A DNA stretch of 64,000 nt from the human T2T-CHM13v2.0 reference genome, Homo sapiens. Made by a program: the position numbers and the translations under genes. The notes below the pieces were generated by a model. That model did not search any database and was not told the origin of the DNA. It saw only the letters and a program-made list of their open reading frames with translations. The DNA lies in NCBI RefSeq assembly GCF_009914755.1, contig NC_060935.1; one strand, given 5' to 3'. Below, piece by piece: positions 2,285 through 61,810 of the stretch (position 1 is the stretch's first letter; every line of letters starts with the position of its first letter).

Positions 2285-2420
2285 TACACATTCCTTTTAC
2301 AGACAAAGAAATCAAGGCTCAGAGCGGTTGAACTACTTGCTTAAGATCCACAACCAATTATGGAAAAATTATGATTGGAACTCAATTATTTCCGGCTCCA
2401 AAACCTCTTGTCTTTTTATT
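2285..2420 (-). mobile_element. MIR remnant
   Basis: 'ttttacagacaaagaaatcaaggctcagagcggttgaactacttgcttaagatccac' matches antisense MIR core. Confidence 0.75.
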
Positions 2421-26991: not shown

Positions 26992-27859
26992 CCTAGTTCC
27001 TCTTATTTTGAGGCCACTTTTCTTTCTCATCTTCTCTTTCATTTCTCTGTCTCAGATTAACTTGCGCTTTAAACTTTGGTCTTCTAGCCCAGTCAATCCT
27101 CAACTGCCACAGGGTCACTTTGGGCATGAATCTGATTCCCAGTATTTTTCTTGGACTTTATTGATGCTTCAACAGACGAAGAGCAGAAATGAACTTGCAA
27201 AACTGTACAAATTTCAATAGAAAGCATTGTTTTTGTTGTTGTTGATCTTATCTAGTTTTATAGTAAGTCCCGAAGTCCCAGAAGTTTAGCATTTAAATCT
27301 TTGAATCATTACCTTTAAAAAAAAAATGATCATTAACAGATATCAAAGCATCTGAAATCAAAACTAGGCTTGCAAAACTGATACCAAGCACCATTAGAGA
27401 TCAGTACTACCACTTGTTTGCCTTTAAAAAAATGTGGGGTCACTCAGTAATGAATTTTGCTCCCCTTTAGTAGGATGCTAAATGAATACTGCCAGTAATT
27501 GTATAAAATTAAGACTTTATACTGGCTGCATTCAATCCCAGGAATGGATAATGAAATACATAAAGGTCTTGCAATTACTCCAGGAGAGGATGCTTTTAGA
27601 ATATGGTCTTCCTCTAATAAAACTCATCCCTAACTCAAGCTCATTTACATTGTTGTTTGTGAATATCCCTCATTAGAATCGCCCTTACTCAAAGTATCTT
27701 TCCTGTTTGTTCAGTGTTCAGTGTTCCTGGGGGGAAAAAATCTCATACCTTAGCAGTGTTAAGTTTAGTTGCCAAAAACCATGTCTCAAATACAAAATTT
27801 TTATAAAGGCTGCTGTTACGAAAAGCATGAGGGGCTTTGCAAGGGATGGGAACACCGGG

Positions 27860-28030
27860 ACTATATCCTGCTTGACCACTTGTTAGCTGCAGAACTGTGG
27901 GCAAGTCAATTTACCTCTTATAGTCTCAGATTCCTTGTCTCTAAACTGGACATAAAAATGATTTCTCAAATATTTAGGACTGCATGTGCAATTTAAATGA
28001 ATGCATATAGTGTAGTTGGCAGGCATAAGA
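27860..28030 (+). mobile_element. MIR remnant
   Basis: 'ccacttgttagctgcagaactgtgggcaagtcaatttacctc...ctcagattccttgtctctaaa'. Confidence 0.7.
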
Positions 28031-41004: not shown

Positions 41005-41240
41005 TGGAGGCAGTATAATACAGTTTAATATTAATTATTATTATTATAGATTTCACAGTCAGGTAGGCTTTGATTTGAATTCCAGTCTCTCATTTCCTAG
41101 CGGAAAGACCTCAGACAAGTCACATTAGTTGTCCCAATTTTGGTTCCTTCAACTGTCAGAGAATGATATTAATACGTACAAGGTGCTATGATAATTAAAT
41201 TGGGTAGTGTCTGTAAAGCACTTAGCATAGTGCCTAAAAA
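41005..41240 (+). mobile_element. MIR remnant
   Basis: 'tttgaattccagtctctcatttcctagcggaaagacctcagacaagtcac...tgtaaagcacttagcatagtgcct'. Confidence 0.75.
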
Positions 41241-41259
41241 AATGAACGTGACCTAGCTC

Positions 41260-41770: not shown

Positions 41771-41953
41771 TCCATTCTCTGAATGTGAATCACAGGAAGA
41801 AAATCAGTGATCATTACCCACCTGGAAGGATGAGACGGCATCTGTGTAGCAAATGGGAAATATTTTCTGGGTCCAGACAAGCGATCATGGTCCTACAAAG
41901 AACAGAATTGCATCTCTGTTTTCCTTTTCCTTCTTCTATTTCTCAATGTATAG

Positions 41954-42319
41954 TGTCTTAGTTTGAGCTGCTTTAACAAATAGTCACAGACTGGGTAGTT
42001 TAAACAACAGAAATGTAATTTCTCACAGTTGTGGAGGCTGGAAGTCCAAGATAAAGGTGCCAGCAGATCTGGTGTCTGTTGCAGGGTGGCTTCCTGGTTT
42101 GCAAATGCCCATCTTCTCATTGTGGCCTCACATGGCAGCGAGCAGAGACAAAGAGCATCTTCTCCTGTCTCTTCTAATAAAGACCTAATCTAATTCATTA
42201 GTGTTCCACCTTCATTAATGAACTAACTCCCAAAGTCCCCACCTCCTAATACCAGCACATTGGGGGTTAGGATTTCAATATATGAATTTCGGAGGGACAC
42301 AAATATTCAGTGCATAACA
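41954..42319 (-). mobile_element. MLT1A-like solo LTR
   Basis: tgtcttagt...cataaca termini; 5-bp TSD tatag/tatac. Confidence 0.9.
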
Positions 42320-42929
42320 TATACCCAACACAAGAGAGTCAATCAGAATGCACGGGCCCTTTACAGATAGGCCAGTTCTCCTGACAGAACTCGCACATGT
42401 TTCTCAGCCCAATTTTGATTGTACTCATTGATTTGGTAAGACATGGTCCAAAGGGTTTTCAGGAAGATTCAACATATCTGATAATGTGGCTATGTTCCCA
42501 AGTAGATATTTTAATTTCAGGACCATATTTAACTGTGAAATTTAGCTTCCTCAATGCCAAAAGGTAGTTCATACAACTTGACAAAAATCAGCCACAAAGA
42601 CTCAAACTCCTGGTGTATACACATTCTACTATTATATGATTCTCTTGGAAGAAAGGTGTGTTTTCTTGTTTCTGGGTCTCCAGGGCCTGAAACAGTACCT
42701 AATATACGCTGGCACTTCATACATTTGTTGAATGAGTGAATGAATTGCTCAAACATAAGCTGATAACCCACATTGCAAGTATATATGGGAAACAAATTTA
42801 TTGAGTGTCTGTTGCAGATATGTTTCATTTAGTAACTTATTTATTTCATACAACAATCTTACTGAAATGTAGCCCCTATTTACAGATAAAAATTCTGACC
42901 AAATCTGTCTTTTATTAAGCACAACACAG

Positions 42930-43360
42930 AGCTGGTCCCAGACTTCACGGAGTGTAAGAAAGATAATTACAGTGCTGCCTGGGGAGGTCTAACGTAGAAA
43001 TTATATTGAGAAACTCTCTGTAAAAGAATATAGGAGTCCGTGAAAGAACACTTAAAATCTCCATGGACAAGATACAATTTTTGAAAGAAGTAATTTTATT
43101 CTGAACCCAAAATAATGAGAAGCAAATACTCAGATGACAAGCAGTAGATGAGATTTCCAGAAACAGAAAACAGCTAATGTGAATGCTTGTCTTAGAGGTT
43201 TGATTGGCAAACCTGAGAAAGACACAGAATGTTGGTGGGGATGGAAGGTAGAGCTTACGTGAGGAGCTGTGAGAGATTAGGCTGGCAGGGACTGGACTCA
43301 CAGCAGTCCCATAATCCTAAGGTACAGAAAAACTATTACAAGCTTTTGAGCCAGGAAAGT

Positions 43361-43401
<41 letters not shown>

Positions 43402-43580
43402 TAATTTTCCAAAATTATATTCTGTTATAGCATTGAAAATGGATTGAGGAAGGGTACAACTGCAAGAAGTAAGTGAGGGCCAGAAACAAAGGATTCCTCA
43501 GTAAGAAATAAGGGTGGTCCACAATAAAGAAGGTAAATTATCTGGGATGGGGGATACGGATATATTTTGGAATATTCAGA
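42930..43580 (-). mobile_element. L2 remnant containing (TA)n at 43364-43397
   Basis: Purine-rich antisense L2-like tract with a TA microsatellite. Confidence 0.5.
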
Positions 43581-45674
43581 AAAGAATCAACACCTTGTGT
43601 GGTGGGTATTATGTCTAATTTATAGATACAAGATTCTAAGGTAAATGGAGGAAAATTGATGTGTCTGATGTGTCTGAGAACAGAGGGGGATCTCAAGACC
43701 AGGTAGCCCCCAGAGCTTAACTCTTCTCACCATGTGAAACCGTCTCCCAGTAGCCTAATGACCCAGACCTGTGAACTCTGTCATCTCCAACAGAGACCAC
43801 CATTATCCACAACACAGCTTGAGCCTTCTCTGTATGGCAATCACACCACCTTCTGTTTCTTCCCCTTAAATATTGGCTGTTGTGCAAAGCACTTCAAATT
43901 ATTAAATGCAAATTATCTTAGAAAATCGATTTCAGGATGCTTAGCCAGAGACTTTATTAAGCAGTTATTGATTGAAAGCAGAAAAGTTAACATGCAAATC
44001 AAATCTAGATTACCGGAGTCTCTCTCACACACATCTTCTAATACAGAGAGGATGCTGCTACTTAAAAAACAAACAAAAATGTTCCTTGTTGGCACCTCAG
44101 AAGCAAGCACCTCTTTGCTTATTTGTTTCTCTCCTTGACAAAAATAAACAAATCTTTAAAAACATAATGAGTCAGGACATTCTCTCTGTGGTAAATAAGT
44201 GGCTCTAAGGGACTCCAGAAGGCCCCTGTTGAGGGTCATTACCCCTTTGGGGCCCTCTGGGAAGCATTCAGTAAATAATTGCTTCCCCACCTTACATGGA
44301 CACCCCAGTGTTCTAAGCATGGGCCAGGGCCAGAGAGTAACTTCTAAACTGGGAGGATTTGGCTGATTAACTTTCCATTAAACGTTTCCCAACTCCATGC
44401 TGAAACTTCAGGGATCAAGCTGAGAGCGGAGAAAAAAGTAACAATCTGAATGCTTGGCTGGTAATTAACATCACCAGGTGACAAATCAATACTACCTGGC
44501 TGTTCCCATAAACAATGATAACAGGGAGGACTAGACTTCCAGCCTTTAGCCTCCTGGTTATTTTTCTGTGGCTCCTATTGCTTTAAAGACAAAAGGTGAA
44601 ACAGGGCCGGGTGGTATTTCTTCAGCTGTAGGTGGTATTGAGGTCTAAAAATGCAAACAGGTATTTCAAAGAAAAGAGTTTTGGCTGAAAAGTAAATACG
44701 ATATAACCTGGAATGTTGAACAAAAATGTGAATTTAGGTGAGTGGTTTTTCAATGTTAACATATATAAGAATAACTAGATGATTTATTTATAAAGTAGAT
44801 TTCAGAAATTAAGTTTCAGGAGTATTCATAAGTTTTCCAGGAGATTTTGGTGTGGGTAGGTCACAAATTACATGTGAAGAATCATGTTAAATACACAACT
44901 GTTTCATTTATTAGGTAGTTTTATCCAAAAAACTTAACAAGTATTTGTTTCTTAACAACTTATAGCTCTCTGAAAAAGTAATGCATATAATTTCCAAGAA
45001 AAAGTGATGTTCTTCTTTCTTAAATGACCACAAGTGGTGATTGCTAATGGGAGGTATGCACGTGTGGGGCACTGCCCACCTTTTCAAAGCTTGCAATGAG
45101 GTCAAGACACTGCCCTCCTCATTTCCTGTTTCACATTGAAACATGGGGTTTCATTTTTATCCCAGCAACTGCTGAAAACTCAGCTTCCCAAAGATATGAC
45201 AGCATTGAAGCGAATGTAAAGCAAACTAGCAATTCACACTGTGCCTGTCAGAAATGAGTATCACTTGGTTTTCCTAACAAGTTAAAATGTCCCAGTGTGT
45301 CCCTGGAATTTGGTGTAGCATCTCAATGTGCCTCAGCACACACCTTGGGAATCATGGGTGTAAGCAGCAGTAAAACCAGGCAGATTAGATGGGCTCTGAC
45401 CCCCAGGGCCTATGTTAATTGGCAGATAATGGGCAGTTGAATGGAAGTTTGAGAATGAGGGATTGCCCATCCTTTTGGAAATAGAAGATGCTTTTTAATT
45501 TCAGGGCAAATGGTCTCTAGCATTCTAACTTGAGGCTTCTCAGTAAGCCTAACTGGAAGAATTTGTTACTAAATGGTATGGTTTTGTTAAGCCTAAAGAA
45601 CTTTTAATTTAGAAATGCTATTTCTTTTCTGCATACCTACTGCGATGACTCGGGAAAATAGTAAAATACATACA

Positions 45675-45850
45675 TTAGCTTATTTAATCTGCCCAACACA
45701 TCTATGAAATATCGTTAGCCCTATTTTCTAGTTGAGGAAGCTAGAAATCAAATTGGCTAAGATACTTACCCAATATCCTACAGAGAGTAAATACTGCAGT
45801 GAGTCCCAGAACCCGTGTCTGACTCAAAAGCCCAAACTCTTTCCTCTATA
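45675..45850 (-). mobile_element. MIR remnant
   Basis: 'cttatttaatctgcccaaca...ctattttctagttgaggaagctag...cagaacccgtgtctgactcaaaagcccaaactctttcc'. Confidence 0.75.
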
Positions 45851-45975
45851 AGCAAGGGCTTCAATTTTGAGAGAAAGCTACTTCTCAGGTGCCCACTATG
45901 TAGATCTGGAAGGTTCAGTTTGAGATTCCAATAAATTCCAGGTATAGATAACTCCCCTCTGACACCCAGATTTTT

Positions 45976-46197
45976 TTTTTAGTTAAGTTATTTGAGTAAA
46001 TCATGTTATCACCTTATCTTATTGGGATTTAGTTCTTTTATCTACTTATGTTTACATAAAATAATGTTATCTGTGTTATTCTGTCAACCCAGGTCACTTA
46101 AAATCATCAGATTTTCATTGAGCCTTAAAAATGTCTCAAGCACTAAACTATGGGTGACAAATATATGGATTAGAAATTCTCTACACACTGGATGCTA

Positions 46198-46238
<41 letters not shown>

Positions 46239-46634
46239 AGAGAGATATATATATATATAATTGGAGACACAAAAGGAGATGCAGTTTCATTGTGCCAGGA
46301 TCAATAAAAGGGGATTTTTTTTGTCCTATTTTGTAACTTATACTAAAACAGACACCACTCCTCATATCTTCTGTGCTTCTACTAATTTACTACTCACACA
46401 AACAGTTTTTAGCACCTAGTGTGTAGAGAATTTCTAATCCATATATTTGTCACCCATAGTTTAGAGCTTGAGATATTTTTAAGGCTCAATTAAAATCTGA
46501 TGATTTTAAGTGAACTGGTTTAACATTAGAATAACACAGATAGCATTATTTTAGGTAAACATAAGTAGATAAAGGAACTAAGTCTCAAAGAGATAAGGTG
46601 ATAACATGATTTACTCAAGTGACATAACTAAAAA
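45976..46634. repeat. Long inverted repeat (arms 45976-46212 and 46395-46634, spacer about 180 bp)
   Basis: Manual alignment: 19 substitutions plus one 3-nt indel over about 237 bp; longest perfect stretch 47 bp. Confidence 0.97.
46203..46259. repeat. Compound microsatellite (TG)n(GA)n(TA)n
   Basis: Directly visible at the inner edge of the left IR arm. Confidence 0.95.
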
Positions 46635-47714
46635 GCTGAACAATTTTTTGAGAACCATTTATAGCCATTAACTGTTCTTTTTCCCCTATTTTTAAAAATT
46701 TGTTTTCAGAGCGTTAACTATGTGTAAGTGGTTGAAGGAAACATAGAATCCATAAAAACTCTTACCTAAACATAATGCTCTAACCTAACTAAAGGTTAAA
46801 GAATCTAAGGAAACTTTGTGTTTAGTACCACTAAAAACACACAAAAGTACTGATATTCATAGATTTTTAGGGCCTACAATTGTCCTTAATGTTATTCAAT
46901 ATTAAATACTCGTATTAGCTACTGTTATTATTAAAGAGTATTTAAATCTCTAACTCAAAATATATAGATGTTATTTGTATAGATAATGACATAGATATGC
47001 ACACAGATATACATATCGAGTTAAAAACTGTCAGTGTTTTCTCTTCACATTCTGGGATTTCCCTAATATTTTAGTCATATTGATATGTCAATTTCCAAGG
47101 CAGGAAAAAGCAAGGAAGCAATTATTTTAATTATTTTCTGTTAGCTTTCTGATCCCAATTACTAAAGAATGGTATTAACCTGAAGTATTTATTTATTCAT
47201 GTGTGTGTGTGTATTTATATATATATATATATAAAATATAAGTATATATATTTACATACACCACTGTTCAATTGATATGTATATATTGAACCGTGGTTTA
47301 CAGAGAGTGGGGACGAAGGGGAAGAAGCATTGATTTTGTTTTGGTAATTTTCATTTCAATTTCCATTTCATTATTAAGCAGAAAAACGTGCACATTAAGC
47401 TGAAAACATGAGTGACATAATTCTCTTTAGTACTACAGAGGTTTACATTTTAACATTTACTTGACTGTGTTTATGCTCCATGGATAAATGGGTAAGTGGT
47501 TAAGAGAGCACATACAGAAATTAAAAAAAAAATATTATGGTATCTTCAAACCAGAGAAGGAGAAAACATTTAATTACAGAGTGAAATTGCTGCTGTTTTG
47601 ATAGCTGAAAGTACAATCTTCTACCTCTAAATTATATTAATTAGAAGGTGGAGGTTTTCAGCCCCTATTACACGCTCAGCATGGTGCTTGGGTTGGGGGT
47701 TCAGTAATAAACAA

Positions 47715-47930
47715 GAAAGATTCAATTTCTTGGCATTTGCGGCATCACTTAGTTTTATACAATCCTCACAGCAGCCTCTGTAGGTAGATCTTGTCTTCTT
47801 CATTTTACAAATGTGCAAACCAAATTCAAGGAGGTGAAGTAATTTGTCTATGATCACATATGTAGGAAGTGTTGGAGTCGTAACATGAACTCAAGCCTTT
47901 TTTATTTTGAAGTCTAATTATTTTCGCTAT
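47715..47930 (-). mobile_element. MIR remnant
   Basis: 'aatcctcacagcagcctctgtaggtag...cattttacaaatgtgcaaac...aggaggtgaagtaatttgtc'. Confidence 0.75.
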
Positions 47931-48242
47931 ACTTGGATTCCTCTCAGTCCAGACATATTAAAGATAAACAACTAATTACTTATTAATTGCTTCTCAATCT
48001 TTTTTCAACTTAGACTGGTTTCATAGATAATTTTACACTCTCTAGAAAACACGATAATCTTAACTTTGAATATAGTCTAATATTACATATGATAATGGTA
48101 ATCACTCATTTCAGAAACCATAGGATTCCCTCTAACTTTTTACATCTCAGGTTTATCACCATTAGGCTTGCAAAAGTAATTAGGAAGAATCACCATGTTC
48201 CATTTATACCCCCATTTCAAACAATTAATGGTGTAGAGCTGT

Positions 48243-48637
48243 TGTATTAGTACGTTCTCACATTGCTATAAAGAACTGCCTGAGACTGGGTAATTTATAA
48301 AGAAGAAGAGGTTTAATTGACTCACAGTTCCACAGGCTGTATAGAAAGCATGGCTGAGGAGGCCTCAGGAAACTTACAATCATTGCGGAAGGCCAAGGGA
48401 AAGCAGGCAAGTCTCATTCTCACATGGCGGGAAATGAAGGAAGAGAGAGAGAGAAGGGGAAGGTGCTACACACTTTTAAACAACCAGATCTCATAAGAAC
48501 TCACTCCTTATCATGAGAACAGCAAAGCGGAAATCTGCCATCATGATCTGATCATCTTGCATCAGGCCCCTCCTCCAACACCGGGAATTAGAATTCAACA
48601 TGAGATTTGGGCAGAGACACAAATACAAACCATATCA
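48243..48637 (-). mobile_element. MSTA-like solo LTR
   Basis: tgtattagt...aaaccatatca termini; TSD gctgt/actgt. Confidence 0.92.
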
Positions 48638-48686
48638 ACTGTCTTTTCTAAATTCTGTCCCCTGATCGACTACTTCATCCTCATCA

Positions 48687-49026
<340 letters not shown>

Positions 49027-49410
49027 AAAATGAGATTTTCTACCCTCTATTGAATTAGCATTTCTAGGAGATAAAAAAAAAAAAAAAGCCTGAGGAGTCC
49101 GATTTTAATCCATTTGCCTAGGTCATTTCAGTCTAAAACCACTATGAGAACTACTTCTATATGAAATACTATACTATATATGGAGTAGAAGTATATCTCA
49201 TGCCCTTTATTACTAAAGCTGATTATTAAAAGGTCAAAACCTCAACTGGAATAGTAGCAAGTTCAGTACTGTTCTTTTAGAGGGGACTGGACTTCTCACC
49301 ACTGTTGTTGAGAAAACAAACCAAAAAATCAAAAAATAAAGATTTATGCAAAATGGATTCTATTCCTAGGACAAAACAGGGAAAGTCCTGGACTATAAGT
49401 GTTTTACTGA

Positions 49411-49825
<415 letters not shown>

Positions 49826-51411
49826 TCAATCATTTGAGACTGAGCATGGAAATCTGCTCAGTACTTCAACTCCAATTTTCATCCTCAACACAGCTATCCA
49901 CCTAAGTCTCCCTAGGAGTTATGTCTAATGTGGCCTCCATATCCTGCCCTCAATTCAAAAGCAAAGTAGTGCCTTCTACTCCCTTTCTCAGTCAAGAGAG
50001 CTTGACGGCTTCCAGTGGACATAGACCTCTGAATTAAGACACGCCCATTTGTGAAAAGTTCCCAGTATTTCCTCTACCTTATCTCTGGAAACTTTTCATT
50101 CTTTATTACAAAGGATGATTATACTATTCCTTCTTTCCAATAGAGCTTAATTGTCTTTTAAAAGGTCGAGACTTTAAAACCACTAAAGATGTTTTCCTGA
50201 GAGGGTCATTCATGCCGGGTCTGCAATACAATTCACTCTTCCCAGGATCACCAAATGAATCTCTGAGTCTTCTTAAAAATAATAAAAGTAACAGCAGAAA
50301 TTCATGTTAGGGCTTTGTAGCATGGATATAAATGCATGCATTCCTTATTACTGACATCATGGTCTCCATTTTTTTCAATTACTATGTTCCCTATGTCAAG
50401 ACGAAACAAAGGAGAAAAAGCTGCTTTTTAAGAATGTACACTAATTCCCTCCTAAATCATTGTGCTAAAATATCAAAAGAAATTATAGCTGTCTGCGCTA
50501 GAGATGTATGAAGTGATGTGTCCACACCTTTTCAGTTCCTGTTAGTAATCAAAACAAGTGTTTCTAAACCACTTTCTCTTTGCTCCGTAGAACACAAATT
50601 CTAGAGGATGATAATATGTTTTACACACACAACACAATTTCCTCCATCAAGTGTTATAGAAAACAACCAGTACAACAAAATCTTTTACTGCAGATTCCAT
50701 AAATCAATCTGAATCTTCAGAAAAAAATTGTAATTTTATAGTTTTCCTCAAGCTAAATTCATGGAACCATTTTTCCACTGAATATCTTGAATGACTGACA
50801 TTTTACAAAGTTCACCCTAGGAAATGTTAATTGCAGCCAACTTCTGTTATTCATCATTCAGTCAACCAATTTTGAATACCAGCAATGTTATCAGCAATCC
50901 TATGAGAAATGGTGTAGGAATGGAAAAGTGTCTAGGAAGGAAAGGAAAACAATACACAATATGATAAACATTATCTTACTTGTCATACACTATGATATAA
51001 TAACACTAATAGTTATCGTAACTACCTCATATGCATTCTCATTTAACTCTTTCCAATGTTTTCTGAACTCCAGCAACCGTGCAGAGCACATAGAAGTCAC
51101 AATAGAAATATGAAGTCATTCACCGACACTTTTTCCTTCCTTGCATAAGAATATGTTTTAAAAATCTGTATCTATGAATACACAAATACAGTATCATAGT
51201 CATGCAAAAAGGTATCATATTATACATATTATGACTGTGTGTTTTAAGTGCAATATGTTTTTTCTTTTAGATATACCATCCCCATAATAGATACCGCATG
51301 TTAGGCTTATATACCATAGTTTTTTCCATGATCATATGATTACATACATATGCCTGTACATCTTTAAAGCCTGTAGACACAGCTGGAATTCTCATTTAAG
51401 AAACATCAGTG

Positions 51412-51794
<383 letters not shown>

Positions 51795-51949
51795 TCAGAA
51801 GAGTTCTGCCATGGATATGAATAAGTTTTAATGAAATTTGATCAATTTTTTTTACATGTTCATTTTTAGGTATGAATAAAGTTATATAAGATAAGCTTCG
51901 ATACTTAGTAGAATCTAAATGAGCACTTCAAATGAGAGTTAATTTTTTA

Positions 51950-52228
<279 letters not shown>

Positions 52229-52309
52229 TTATATGAAATGATAGTGGGTTTTGCAATCAATGATACCTTAGGTTCAATAAAATATAGTACATAAACACAT
52301 ATGCATACA

Positions 52310-53870
52310 TATGAATTTTTTATCTTTTTTATGAAAATAGAATCATAGTTTATATAGTTTAATATTACATTGTTTTTCTCAATGCTATCTTATGGAAATT
52401 TCTCCAAATCTAAATAATATATCTCAAATTAATCTATTTTATTGGCTAAATATTTCCCAATGAATTCATTATTGCATTCCTCTATTGATAGGCATTCACT
52501 TTATTCTGCTTTGTTTCCACTATAAACAATGGTATAATAAATATGCTTATAAATGTGTCTTTACATACTGTAGATTTGTTTATTTGCAATAGATTTACAG
52601 AAATGGGATTGTTGGGTCAAGATGAGTATGGCTATAGTTTGAATATGTGCCCTCCAAAATCAGGTATTGCCAATGTGTTAATATTAAAAGCTGGTGCCTG
52701 TAAGAGGTCATGGTTGTTCCTCCTTCATTGATGGGATTAAAACCCTTATAAGCCCCACATAGCATTAGGCTATCGTTTGCCCTTCTGCATTTTGCCAAGT
52801 GAAGACACAGTGTTCCTACCCTCCAGAGGATAAAGTGTCAAGGCAGCATCTTGGAAGCAGAGAATGAGCCCTCACCAGGCAACCAAACCTGCTGGTATTA
52901 ATACATTGTTCTGGGACTTCCCAACCACCAGAACCGTGGGAAAATAAATTTATATTCTTTATAAGTGACTCAGTCTGAGGTGTTCTGTTATAACAGCACA
53001 AATTGACTAAGACATGTATCCAATATAAAATCTGATAGACCTTGCCAGTTTGCTTTCCTGAAGGATGAAAAGACTCTAACTTATTTTAGCAGTGTGTGAA
53101 AATATTTTTTCTTACAATCATAACAGAAATAGATATTATGATTCTTTTTGAAGTTGGCTATACTTTAACTGATTTTTGAATACCTTGTCTATATTTATAT
53201 GTCATTAGGTTTTTTTTAAGGATTTTCCTATTGATATATTTTATCTATTTTTCTATTTGGCTATCTTTTTGTCAGTTTATAGGAACTATTTGTATATGAT
53301 AGGTAAAATATTTTTGTTATCAGAAATATATTTGTTCCAAATCTTTGACTACTGTCTTTATATATGAAAATTTTTCCTCATTAAATTATTCTTAATTTTT
53401 CATCTTTATCTTTAATCTTATTACTCCAGAGTATGCAGATTTGGTTAATTTCTACTAGATTTTCTTGCAAGTTTTTTGTTGCTCTTTTGTTCTTTTAATT
53501 TTTTATTCCTTTTGGAATTTATTTTGTATACATTAAAATCGATGTTGAATTTTATTTTTATCCAGTATGTCATCACCACTTACTAAATATTGCATCCTAT
53601 CCCACTTATTTGACTGGACTCTTAATTTTACATATACTACCTTCTTATATACACAGATACATGATCTGAATTATCTTTCAGGTTCCGGTGACATGTTGAT
53701 CTATCCCTCTACCAATAGCACATTGACTATCACAAGGCTTGATAATGTATTAATAGCTAGATGACAAATACCTCTCACTAATCTTTTATTTTCCCCCCAA
53801 CTCCTTCTCTTACCTATTCCCAGACATTTATTCTGCTATGTAAGCTTTAAGAAATTTTCTTCCAACCCTT
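52310..53870 (-). mobile_element. Old L1ME-like fragment (interrupted by LTR)
   Basis: T-rich antisense L1 motifs 'cctctattgataggcatt', 'gaaatgggattgttgggtcaa', 'aatagctagatgacaaatacctctc'. Confidence 0.6.
52630..53014 (+). mobile_element. MSTC/D-like solo LTR
   Basis: 'gctatagtttgaatatgtgccctccaaaat...gactaagaca'; TSD agtat/tgtat. Confidence 0.85.
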
Positions 53871-54164
53871 TTTAGCAGCTGTCACTGTTTAAAGAAGGAA
53901 GAAGGAAGAATTTAACCTAACATTAGTGAGATAATGTATATAAAGTAACATACTTTGTGAATGGCAGAGGGAATATTTTATCCAGCCCAATCTGATAGAT
54001 CTGATTGTAAAATAATTAGCATTACACCCAATTCTACCTACATGGTTTCCTTTGATGCTTACCAAAGACTTGTAGCTATAGTTTTCTATTTTTACAGATA
54101 AGGAAGTGAGATGACTAAAAGGGGAACTAATTTGTGCATGTCATTTTTAGGCATATTTCCTTAT

Positions 54165-54341
<177 letters not shown>

Positions 54342-55042
54342 TAAGTACCTGTCTAAATACCAAAATACCTTTATCCTCAGCATGAAAATGCCTGTGCACT
54401 TTGCAGAAATCAGTCTAAGCAGCTCTGGACATGAAAGTGAAGCAAAGTGGGTGTGATCATCTGAGGAAAAAAAAAATCTGCATTCAATGTGCAACATCAC
54501 AATCAGTAGGGCATTCTGTTGCCAGTAACCTGGATACTGAGCCTGGTTTTGACCAACGGCAAATTTTCGGAACTCCTGACAATGCAGCAGGAATCACAAG
54601 CCTTTTGAATCAAATCCTGTGATTCAGGTCTTAAAACCTGAACTTGACTGCCTCCCCATGGGAGTCACAAGTTCAGAACTACTGGCTTTTGTAAAATTAG
54701 ATCAATGAAAACCTTGATACAATCCTTGTCCACATCTTCAAAACCAGAAGACCTCATATTCCAGTTTGCCCAGAATAGTCCAGGTTTATGTCTATTGTCC
54801 AAGTTTGCTTAATAAGAAAGTCCCTTTACTCTCAAAATTATCTCAGCAGGGATAATACATTATATGGTCATGCTATTCAGAAAGAGACAATGTGAGACAT
54901 GGCATATGTAGTAGTACAGAGCTGAACGAGCTCACAGGGTAAGGTTTACAGGGTTATTAGCAGAGAGCCAGAGGGCAAAAACTCCAGGAAAAAACAGCCA
55001 TCACTTGTTATATGTTATTGCTATCTTAAAGAACCATTTTCT

Positions 55043-56784: not shown

Positions 56785-57500
<716 letters not shown>

Positions 57501-61562: not shown

Positions 61563-61577
61563 AATGATGATGATCAT

Positions 61578-61810
61578 CATCAAAATTTATTGAGCTCTTG
61601 CCATGTGCCAAGTACTGTTGTAAACACTTCGCATATAATAACTGATTTAATCTTTACAACATTGATACCAGAAAGGTGGTGTACAGACCCAATTTTACAG
61701 AAAAGGAAGCTAAAGCACAGAGTTCTTATATAATTTGCTCTAGTTTCCAGGATAGTTAAGGGTGGTTCCAAAAGTTAAACTCAGGCAGGTATTAGAGCCC
61801 CACAGTCTAG
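61578..61810 (-). mobile_element. MIR, near full length
   Basis: 'atttattgagctcttgccatgtgccaagtactg...ttttacagaaaaggaagctaaagcacagag'. Confidence 0.8.

What the first reader, a model, noticed from the sequence alone, without database searches (positions are those of the whole stretch)
45976..46634. Long inverted repeat of mostly unique sequence: candidate long-hairpin RNA or foldback element
Seen: arms 45976-46212 and 46395-46634 are reverse complements at about 92% (19 substitutions and one 3-nt indel by hand), including a 47-bp perfect stem (ctaaactatgggtgac...ctacacact). They are not an inverted Alu/L1 pair. The outer 70 bp or so look like a heavily decayed MIR core, and both arms share that decay, so the inversion-duplication post-dates it or the arms are being homogenised by gene conversion. 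Known: closely spaced long IRs are recombinogenic in DNA, and if transcribed give >200-bp dsRNA, a substrate for ADAR, Dicer (endo-siRNA) and PKR/MDA5. Inference: a locally born hairpin locus, possibly functional. It is the strongest candidate for undescribed biology in this window.
Basis: partly seen in the sequence, partly recalled or inferred. Interest (0 to 1): 0.8.

Follow-up and report, generated by a model that had tools for sequence, protein, structure and literature searches.

The report
Single-copy 240-bp inverted duplication
Two 240-base stretches lying 176 bases apart in an intron of a human non-coding RNA gene are reverse-complement copies of each other, most likely an old, harmless copying accident and not a jumping gene or a proven RNA gene.

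Summary
Arms 45976-46215 and 46392-46634 are reverse complements: 220 of 240 aligned bases, 20 substitutions, one 3-nt indel, and a 47-bp perfect stretch. Either strand would fold into a long hairpin.

A whole-genome search finds only the two arms. Two ordinary repeats from the same window gave 10,173 and 5,153 candidates. There are no target-site duplications, no homology beyond the arms and no Rfam family.

Mismatches are spread as chance would spread them. Divergence of K=0.089 puts the event very roughly 20-45 My ago.

Best reading: a one-off local inverted duplication, by fold-back or template switch, in intron 1 of LINC02740, evolving neutrally. A hairpin-RNA function is neither supported nor excluded. 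Expression, editing, small-RNA and orthologue data were out of reach. Interest is low.

The parts
45976..46215 (.). Left arm of the inverted repeat (240 nt, 30% G+C, no CpG). Its outer end lies in a T10 run (45971-45980). Its inner end runs into (TG)n.
46216..46391 (.). Single-copy spacer or loop of 176 nt. Its left part continues a compound microsatellite (TG)n(GA)n(TA)n that starts in the left arm at about 46203 and ends at about 46262. Its two halves are not complementary.
   Evidence: (direct-repeat family D1). It has no other copy in the genome.
46392..46634 (.). Right arm (243 nt), reverse complement of the left arm with a 3-nt insertion at about 46511-46513 (placement within the local TAATGT is arbitrary). 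Its outer end is an A5 run. Its outer 66 nt give a weak, non-significant match to MIR profile positions 128-186 on the - strand.
46143..46189 (.). Longest perfect stretch of the stem (47 bp; partner 46418-46464). It is not longer than expected for 20 mismatches placed at random on 240 positions.
   Evidence: P = 0.22. A 26-mer from it, allowing up to 3 mismatches, occurs only at the two arms in the genome.
41893..54368 (-). Intron of LINC02740 (between exons 41822-41892 and 54369-54445) that contains the whole repeat. The repeat starts about 7.8 kb downstream of the annotated transcript start at 54445.
   Evidence: Hub annotation given with the finding. It was not tested with expression data.

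Best explanation
This is a one-off, local inverted duplication of about 240 bp of unique, AT-rich intronic DNA, with the copy placed 176 bp from its source. The likeliest mechanism is DNA-level. Either a broken or stalled 3' end folded back on short inverted homology (the inner arm ends read CTGTGTGTG and CACACAAACAG) and copied its own strand, or the polymerase switched template during replication and then rejoined. Since then both arms have drifted apart neutrally to 8.3% difference (K = 0.089), which dates the event very roughly to 20-45 million years ago, within anthropoid primates. Today it is a passive structure. In DNA it can form a hairpin or cruciform, but this is weakened by the 176-nt loop and the 20 mismatches. 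In RNA it would make a 240-bp imperfect duplex inside intron 1 of the LINC02740 precursor. That duplex would be a plausible incidental ADAR substrate and would be removed with the intron. Shown here: the repeat, its uniqueness, its sharp ends, the lack of transposon hallmarks, and the even spread of mismatches. Inferred: the mechanism, the date, which arm is the copy, and neutrality.
For: (1) Only two copies exist, the arms. With the arm as query the first look found 2 candidates and scored both. With 1.8 kb around it, it found 1 candidate locus. A 26-mer of the stem with up to 3 mismatches gave 2 hits against 0 for the reversed control. The same tool gave 10,173 and 5,153 candidates for two repeats of the window at 73-94% identity, so sister copies as diverged as the arms themselves would have been seen. 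(2) No significant direct repeat flanks the whole unit, the left arm or the right arm (177, 54 and 388 of 500 shuffles score as high). (3) Homology stops sharply at both ends. (4) The single-copy spacer and the short inverted homology at the arm-spacer junctions match the anatomy of fold-back inverted duplications: a spacer in 21 of 21 sequenced junctions and 2-8 bp of inverted microhomology in 13 (PMC3907307, passages read). Template switching is a described source of new hairpins (PMC8794818 and PMC10710096, search listing only). (5) Mismatch spacing is consistent with uniform decay: longest run 47, P = 0.22; outer versus inner half 13 versus 7, p = 0.26. (6) No Rfam family reaches its gathering score.
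Against: No outgroup or second haplotype could be examined, so the pre-duplication allele, the junction microhomology and the date are all untested. The TG/CA homology at the inner ends is part of the arms and sits beside a microsatellite, so it may be secondary. The size is unusual: 240 nt is longer than the short-range template switches reported in great apes (median 12, maximum 128 nt; PMC7954356, section 8 passages), and far smaller than the clinical fold-back duplications. No Dfam or RepeatMasker library was available, so origin from an old, low-copy or strongly decayed repeat family is not excluded. The genome search missed the MIR at 45668-45845 that lay inside the 1.8-kb query, so it is blind at that level of divergence. 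The 9:2 excess of G:U-compatible transitions on the + strand (p = 0.065) is unexplained. Neutrality is a default and was not measured.
Confidence: 0.68

Rival explanations
1. It is a functional long-hairpin RNA locus. The stem is transcribed, as part of the LINC02740 precursor or from an unannotated + strand unit. It acts as a selected substrate of ADAR, Dicer or dsRNA sensors, or it shapes splicing of the lncRNA.
For: Both strands fold into a 240-bp duplex, at -370 and -339 kcal/mol. It lies inside an annotated transcription unit (hub annotation). Non-repetitive dsRNA-forming loci are sparse, at about 2 per Mb (PMC11838218, section 9 read). 9 of 11 transitions keep G:U pairing on the + strand.
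Against: The wobble bias favours the strand opposite to the only annotated transcript and is not significant (p = 0.065). Mismatches are spread evenly, with no protected segment. No Rfam family matches. The 7 papers that mention LINC02740 were seen only as titles and abstract starts in the search listing, and none of those points to a hairpin. At 240 bp and 92-95% paired it falls below the class of more than 300 bp and more than 96% paired that the preprint singled out as putative MDA5 substrates (PMC11838218, section 10). An intronic position means it is removed by splicing.
Confidence: 0.08
2. It is a non-autonomous DNA transposon or foldback element with about 240-bp terminal inverted repeats. 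It is either from a very low-copy family or so old that other copies are beyond the search, with its arms kept alike by gene conversion.
For: The overall anatomy (long TIRs and a short loop) resembles foldback elements and MITEs. No repeat library could be consulted. The genome search is insensitive to divergence of MIR grade. A 22-mer of the arm with up to 3 mismatches is about 2-fold over its reversed control (142 against 72).
Against: There are no other copies at the arms' own level of divergence, although controls return thousands. No target-site duplication flanks the unit (177 of 500 shuffles as good). The only possible 'TA' duplication is a palindrome inside the repeat and carries no information. 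Nothing in the mismatch spacing points to conversion tracts. The 2-fold excess involves an AT-rich word and shows no coherent family.
Confidence: 0.1
3. One arm is a retrocopy. A local transcript was reverse-transcribed by the L1 machinery and inserted in inverted orientation next to its source. The T10 run at the outer end of the left arm would be what remains of the poly(A) tail.
For: On the - strand the left arm ends in A10, whereas the right arm ends in only A5. If the weak MIR match is real, all 8 differences in the outer 66 bp are derived in the left arm, and 5 of them are C-to-T on the + strand. That would fit an error-prone or deaminated copy.
Against: There is no significant target-site duplication around either arm (54 and 388 of 500 shuffles as good). 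The source itself has an A-run at the same place, so the T/A run is part of the homology. The polarity of the 8 differences rests on a 2-3-bit match that cannot be told from a spurious alignment chosen because it favours the right arm.
Confidence: 0.06
4. The arms are two independent insertions of an old SINE (MIR) in opposite orientation.
For: The right arm's outer 66 nt weakly resemble MIR profile positions 128-186. MIR copies are common nearby.
Against: Independent MIR copies here are not detectably alike pairwise. The MIR at 45700-45860 finds no other copy at E below 9.9 in 264 kb, a sample in which the profile finds 37 copies. The arms, by contrast, match at E = 8e-51 over their full 240 nt. 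The match to the profile is not significant and covers only a quarter of the arm.
Confidence: 0.01

Closest known systems
Fold-back inverted duplications with a single-copy spacer (Hermetz et al. 2014, PMC3907307)
   Same: Two inverted copies separated by a non-duplicated spacer, with short inverted homology where the spacer meets the arm (TGTGTG/CACACA here).
   Different: Those are constitutional events of kb to Mb, with spacers of 766-70,466 bp and terminal deletions. This one is 240 bp with a 176-bp spacer, interstitial, fixed in this assembly and old. Its junction homology cannot be separated from the arms.
Short-range template-switch mutations that create hairpins (PMC7954356; PMC8794818 and PMC10710096 seen in the listing only)
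   Same: A local reverse-complement copy made close to its source in one step, which yields a new stem-loop.
   Different: Reported copied fragments have a median of 12 nt and a maximum of 128 nt in great apes. This one is 240 nt.
Non-repetitive predicted dsRNAs of the human dsRNAome (dsRNAscan, Andrews and Bass preprint, PMC11838218)
   Same: An intramolecular stem with both arms within 10 kb, more than 70% paired and apparently not built from interspersed repeats. By the published criteria (section 5) a locus like this should be called.
   Different: I could not check whether this locus is in that resource. It is shorter and less well paired than their class of more than 300 bp and more than 96% paired.
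Foldback elements and MITEs with long terminal inverted repeats
   Same: Long inverted arms around a short loop.
   Different: No other copies, no target-site duplication and no recognisable terminal motif. No repeat library was available to test further.
hpRNA and endo-siRNA hairpin loci (fly; mouse oocyte), and LIRBase long inverted repeats (PMC8728187)
   Same: A genomic inverted repeat that would give a long hairpin RNA if transcribed.
   Different: No small-RNA evidence exists here. LIRBase keeps only arms longer than 400 nt, so this one would be filtered out. Mammalian somatic Dicer handles long dsRNA poorly (abstract starts of PMC11239679 and PMC6391682 in the listing).

Membership tests
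TIR DNA transposon / MITE / foldback element | Multiple copies in the genome | tested here: not met
   Arm query: 2 candidates, both of them the arms. 1.8-kb query: 1 locus. 26-mer with up to 3 mismatches: 2 hits against 0 for the control. Control repeats: 10,173 and 5,153 candidates. The search is blind to divergence of MIR grade.
TIR DNA transposon / MITE / foldback element | Target-site duplication flanking the inverted termini | tested here: not met
   The best direct repeat between the two flanks is 6 nt (ATTTTT), and 177 of 500 shuffles score as high. A 'TA' reading is a palindrome inside the repeat and is uninformative.
TIR DNA transposon / MITE / foldback element | Match to a curated repeat consensus (Dfam/Repbase) | not testable with these tools
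   No repeat library is on hand.
MIR SINE (origin of the arms' outer part) | Significant match to a MIR profile | tested here: inconclusive
   A profile was built from natural copies with the repeat masked. It finds 11 copies in the window at E of 1e-3 or better. Window search: right arm 3.5 bits, E 0.55; left arm only 1.8 bits, E 1.8, in the orientation opposite to that expected. Arms-only search: right arm 2.1 bits, no hit for the left arm or for the masked shared sequence. 22 of 1,014 background tiles score at least 2.1 bits.
Fold-back / template-switch inverted duplication | Inverted copies around a non-duplicated spacer, with both copies local | tested here: met
Fold-back / template-switch inverted duplication | Short inverted microhomology at the spacer-copy junction, and a pre-event allele without one arm | not testable with these tools
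   The inner ends read CTGTGTGTG and CACACAAACAG, but they are part of the arms. No outgroup genome is held.
Processed retrocopy (L1-mediated) | Poly(A) tail plus target-site duplication around one arm | tested here: not met
   A T10/A5 run lies at the outer ends. There is no significant duplication: 54 and 388 of 500 shuffles score as high.
hpRNA / endo-siRNA or editing-enriched dsRNA locus | Long intramolecular duplex | tested here: met
   Paired fraction is 229 of 240 (+ strand) and 222 of 240 (- strand), counting G:U.
hpRNA / endo-siRNA or editing-enriched dsRNA locus | Transcription through both arms, with 21-23-nt reads or A-to-I clusters | not testable with these tools
   The only evidence is the annotation that places it in a LINC02740 intron. 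No expression, editing or small-RNA data are held.
Known RNA families (Rfam 15, including miRNA precursors) | Score at or above the family's gathering threshold | tested here: not met
   The best hits inside the repeat are SCARNA7 at 22.7 bits against 65, and mir-297 at 24 bits against 90. Both fall on the TG/TA microsatellite.

The most novel reading that the evidence does not exclude
This would be a primate-born, single-copy 240-bp hairpin, created in one step by an unusually long template switch, that has been taken up as a nuclear dsRNA element of the LINC02740 locus. It might serve, for example, as an ADAR-bound or Dicer-processed stem that controls the lncRNA's processing, or it might be read from an unannotated + strand transcript, on which 229 of 240 positions still pair.
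Probability: 0.06. Interest if true: 0.55.

Novelty: new member of a known kind. Interest (0 to 1): 0.2.

Why it matters
If the reading is right, this is an ordinary relic. It is one of the few thousand non-repetitive stem-forming loci of the human genome, and its only value is as a clean, datable example of a mid-sized inverted duplication. At 240 bp it falls between short template switches and the large fold-back events. It would matter more only if expression, editing or small-RNA data showed that the stem is used. A simple look at primate alignments and public RNA data would settle that.

Tried and rejected
(1) Multicopy element: rejected by genome searches with positive controls.

(2) Whole arm as a MIR copy. 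My own reading by eye suggested that the full arm was colinear with MIR. A profile built from natural copies did not bear this out. Only positions 128-186 match, weakly, on the right arm. A second 1.8-bit hit on the left arm lies in the wrong orientation.

(3) Using MIR as an outgroup to polarise the differences. At 8 of 8 differing sites in the outer 66 nt the right arm carries the profile's consensus base. The alignment exists only because of those bases. By my own arithmetic from the 40 of 58 matches, the chance of this under a spurious alignment is about 0.03-0.05. I therefore draw no conclusion from it.

(4) Single-sequence nhmmer and relaxed blastn of the arms against 264 kb of neighbouring sequence: no hit at E of 10 or better by nhmmer, and only short weak blastn hits, the best at E 0.002.

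(5) A first attempt to seed a MIR profile from the AT-rich neighbourhood failed: 7 motif hits, and the best of them drifted to an adjacent repeat.

(6) Target-site duplications in three scenarios: none.

(7) Extension of the repeat beyond its ends, or into the spacer: none.

(8) Gene-conversion tracts or a protected segment: none. The longest run has P = 0.22.

(9) Rfam: nothing at gathering score.

(11) Literature. The 7 papers that mention LINC02740 were seen only as titles and abstract starts in the search listing, and none of those points to this structure. I did not search for the locus by coordinates. Supplementary tables of the dsRNA and editing catalogues were not opened and may list it.

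Full report
**Observation.**
- The repeat finder reports it as two adjoining pairs, 46082-46215/46392-46525 and 45976-46082/46528-46634.
- A global alignment joins them. 45976-46215 pairs with the reverse complement of 46392-46634 at 220 of 240 aligned positions, with 20 substitutions (11 transitions, 9 transversions) and one 3-nt indel.
- The perfect 47-bp stretch is 46143-46189.
- The spacer is 176 nt. Its left part continues a compound (TG)n(GA)n(TA)n microsatellite that begins in the left arm.
- The match cannot be chance: E = 8e-51 in the window and 2e-89 in the genome.
- As RNA, the + strand folds at -370.3 kcal/mol and the - strand at -338.8, against about -137 and -121 for shuffles. 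As single-stranded DNA the fold is -221 against -56 kcal/mol.

**Copy number.** The window's own 3.1-Gb assembly was searched.
- The arm finds two candidates, which are itself and the other arm.
- A 1.8-kb query around the repeat finds only its own locus.
- A 26-mer from the perfect stem, allowing 3 mismatches, occurs twice against 0 for the reversed control.
- A 22-mer from an AT-rich part occurs 142 times against 72 for the control, with no coherent family.
- Positive controls: two masked repeats of the window gave 10,173 and 5,153 first-look candidates at 73-94% identity.
- Sister copies as diverged as the arms are from each other would therefore have been found.
- The search has a limit. 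It did not recover any relative of the MIR at 45668-45845, which lay inside the 1.8-kb query, so very old families are beyond it.

**Transposon and retrocopy hallmarks.**
- No significant direct repeat flanks the whole unit, the left arm or the right arm (177, 54 and 388 of 500 shuffles score as high).
- Homology ends sharply. The outer flanks and the two halves of the spacer are no more complementary than shuffles.
- The outer ends sit in a T10 run (left) and an A5 run (right). This could be read as a poly(A) remnant, but without a duplication it carries little weight.

**The MIR claim.**
- No repeat library was available, so I built a profile from natural copies. A short core motif, recalled from memory, occurs 1,491 times in the genome against 0 for its reversed control.
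- Thirty loci around such sites seeded an iterated nhmmer profile, trained on 354.6 kb with the repeat masked out. It gathered 114 copies.
- The profile finds clear copies in the window, among them 45668-45845 (E = 5.5e-23) and 47753-47947 (E = 5.7e-23), both on the - strand.
- On the arms it gives only 3.5 bits (E 0.55) for 46567-46632 against profile positions 128-186, and 1.8 bits on the left arm in the wrong orientation.
- Searched alone, the right arm scores 2.1 bits. The left arm and the shared sequence with differing columns masked give no hit at all.
- Of 1,014 background tiles of 243 nt that lie outside profile hits, 22 score at least 2.1 bits.
- At all 8 differing sites in that stretch the right arm carries the profile's consensus base. 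The alignment depends on those very bases, so I draw no polarity from it.
- Two independent MIR insertions are excluded. Independent copies here are not detectably alike pairwise, whereas the arms are 91.7% identical over their full length.

**Decay.**
- The 20 mismatches are spread as chance would spread them: longest run 47, P = 0.22; 13 in the outer half against 7 in the inner half, p = 0.26.
- This gives no sign of conversion tracts or of a protected segment.
- There are no CpGs in either arm.
- K2P distance is 0.089 (standard error about 0.02). At 1.0-2.2e-9 substitutions per site per year (rates recalled, not measured here), this means roughly 20-45 My, with wide error.
- Nine of the 11 transitions leave G:U pairs on the + strand and two on the - strand (p = 0.065), which explains the 31 kcal/mol difference between the strands.
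- The only annotated transcript, LINC02740, is on the - strand. If this trend means anything, it does not speak for selection on that RNA.

**Context.**
- By the annotation supplied with the finding, the repeat lies in the intron between LINC02740 exons 41822-41892 and 54369-54445, about 7.8 kb from the transcript start.
- Seven papers mention the gene. I saw only their titles and abstract starts in the search listing, and none of those points to this structure.
- No Rfam family reaches its threshold. The weak SCARNA7 and mir-297 hits fall on the microsatellite.

**Comparison with what is known.**
- The anatomy is two inverted copies, a non-duplicated spacer, and short inverted homology (TGTGTG/CACACA) where arm meets spacer. 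This is the anatomy of fold-back inverted duplications, which had a spacer in 21 of 21 sequenced junctions and 2-8 bp of inverted microhomology in 13 (PMC3907307, abstract and passages).
- Those events are kb to Mb in size, with spacers of 766 bp or more.
- Short-range template switches make local reverse-complement copies and new hairpins (PMC8794818 and PMC10710096, listing only). In great apes the copied piece has a median of 12 nt and a maximum of 128 nt (PMC7954356, passages).
- This 240-nt event lies between the two scales.
- As a potential dsRNA it belongs to the sparse "non-repetitive" class of the dsRNAscan preprint, at about 2 per Mb. It is below that paper's class of more than 300 bp and more than 96% paired (PMC11838218, sections 5, 9 and 10 read). 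I could not check whether the locus is listed there.
- LIRBase keeps only arms over 400 nt (PMC8728187, passages).

**Verdict.**
- This is a real, single-locus inverted duplication of unique sequence. It was most likely made once, by a fold-back or template-switch error in an anthropoid ancestor, and has decayed neutrally since (confidence about 0.68).
- Rival readings: a functional hairpin RNA (about 0.08), an old or very low-copy TIR element (about 0.10), and a retrocopy origin (about 0.06).
- These rivals are not excluded, because orthologues, repeat libraries and expression, editing and small-RNA data were out of reach.
- It is a new member of a known kind, and interest is low.

Noticed in passing
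window 45668-45845 (-), 47753-47947 (-), 61574-61808 (-), 41057-41242 (+), 27834-28008 (+), 2293-2407 (-), and five weaker hits: Eleven copies of an old SINE, which I take to be MIR from a recalled core motif, match a profile built here at E of 1e-3 or better. One of them ends 130 bp before the left arm of the repeat.
   Followed up: partly
window 51539-51669, 52020-52152 and 57223-57350, each paired with 54208-54340: Three further inverted-repeat pairs of 128-133 nt at 75-85% complementarity share one arm that lies just beside LINC02740 exon 1 (54369-54445). They are probably copies of one interspersed repeat family in opposite orientations. They were not identified.
   Followed up: no
window 46203-46262 and 47192-47266: Two compound TG/TA microsatellites about 1 kb apart give sub-threshold Rfam hits to mir-297 and mir-466 (18.7-29.6 bits against thresholds of 85-90). 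These are low-complexity matches, not miRNA genes.
   Followed up: partly
window 45976-46215 against 46392-46634: Nine of the 11 transition differences between the arms are G:U-compatible on the + strand and only 2 on the - strand (p = 0.065). In 6 of the 7 C/T differences the T is in the left arm. The cause is unexplained. It may be chance, strand-biased mutation, or a burst of changes in one arm when it was copied.
   Followed up: partly
genome G000, e.g. C3:176210894, C5:168284013, C7:153079503: One identical 22-nt variant of the arm word, with 3 mismatches, recurs at three unrelated loci, and a close variant occurs at a fourth (C4:42877537). This hints at a small repeat family that shares this AT-rich word.
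   Followed up: no
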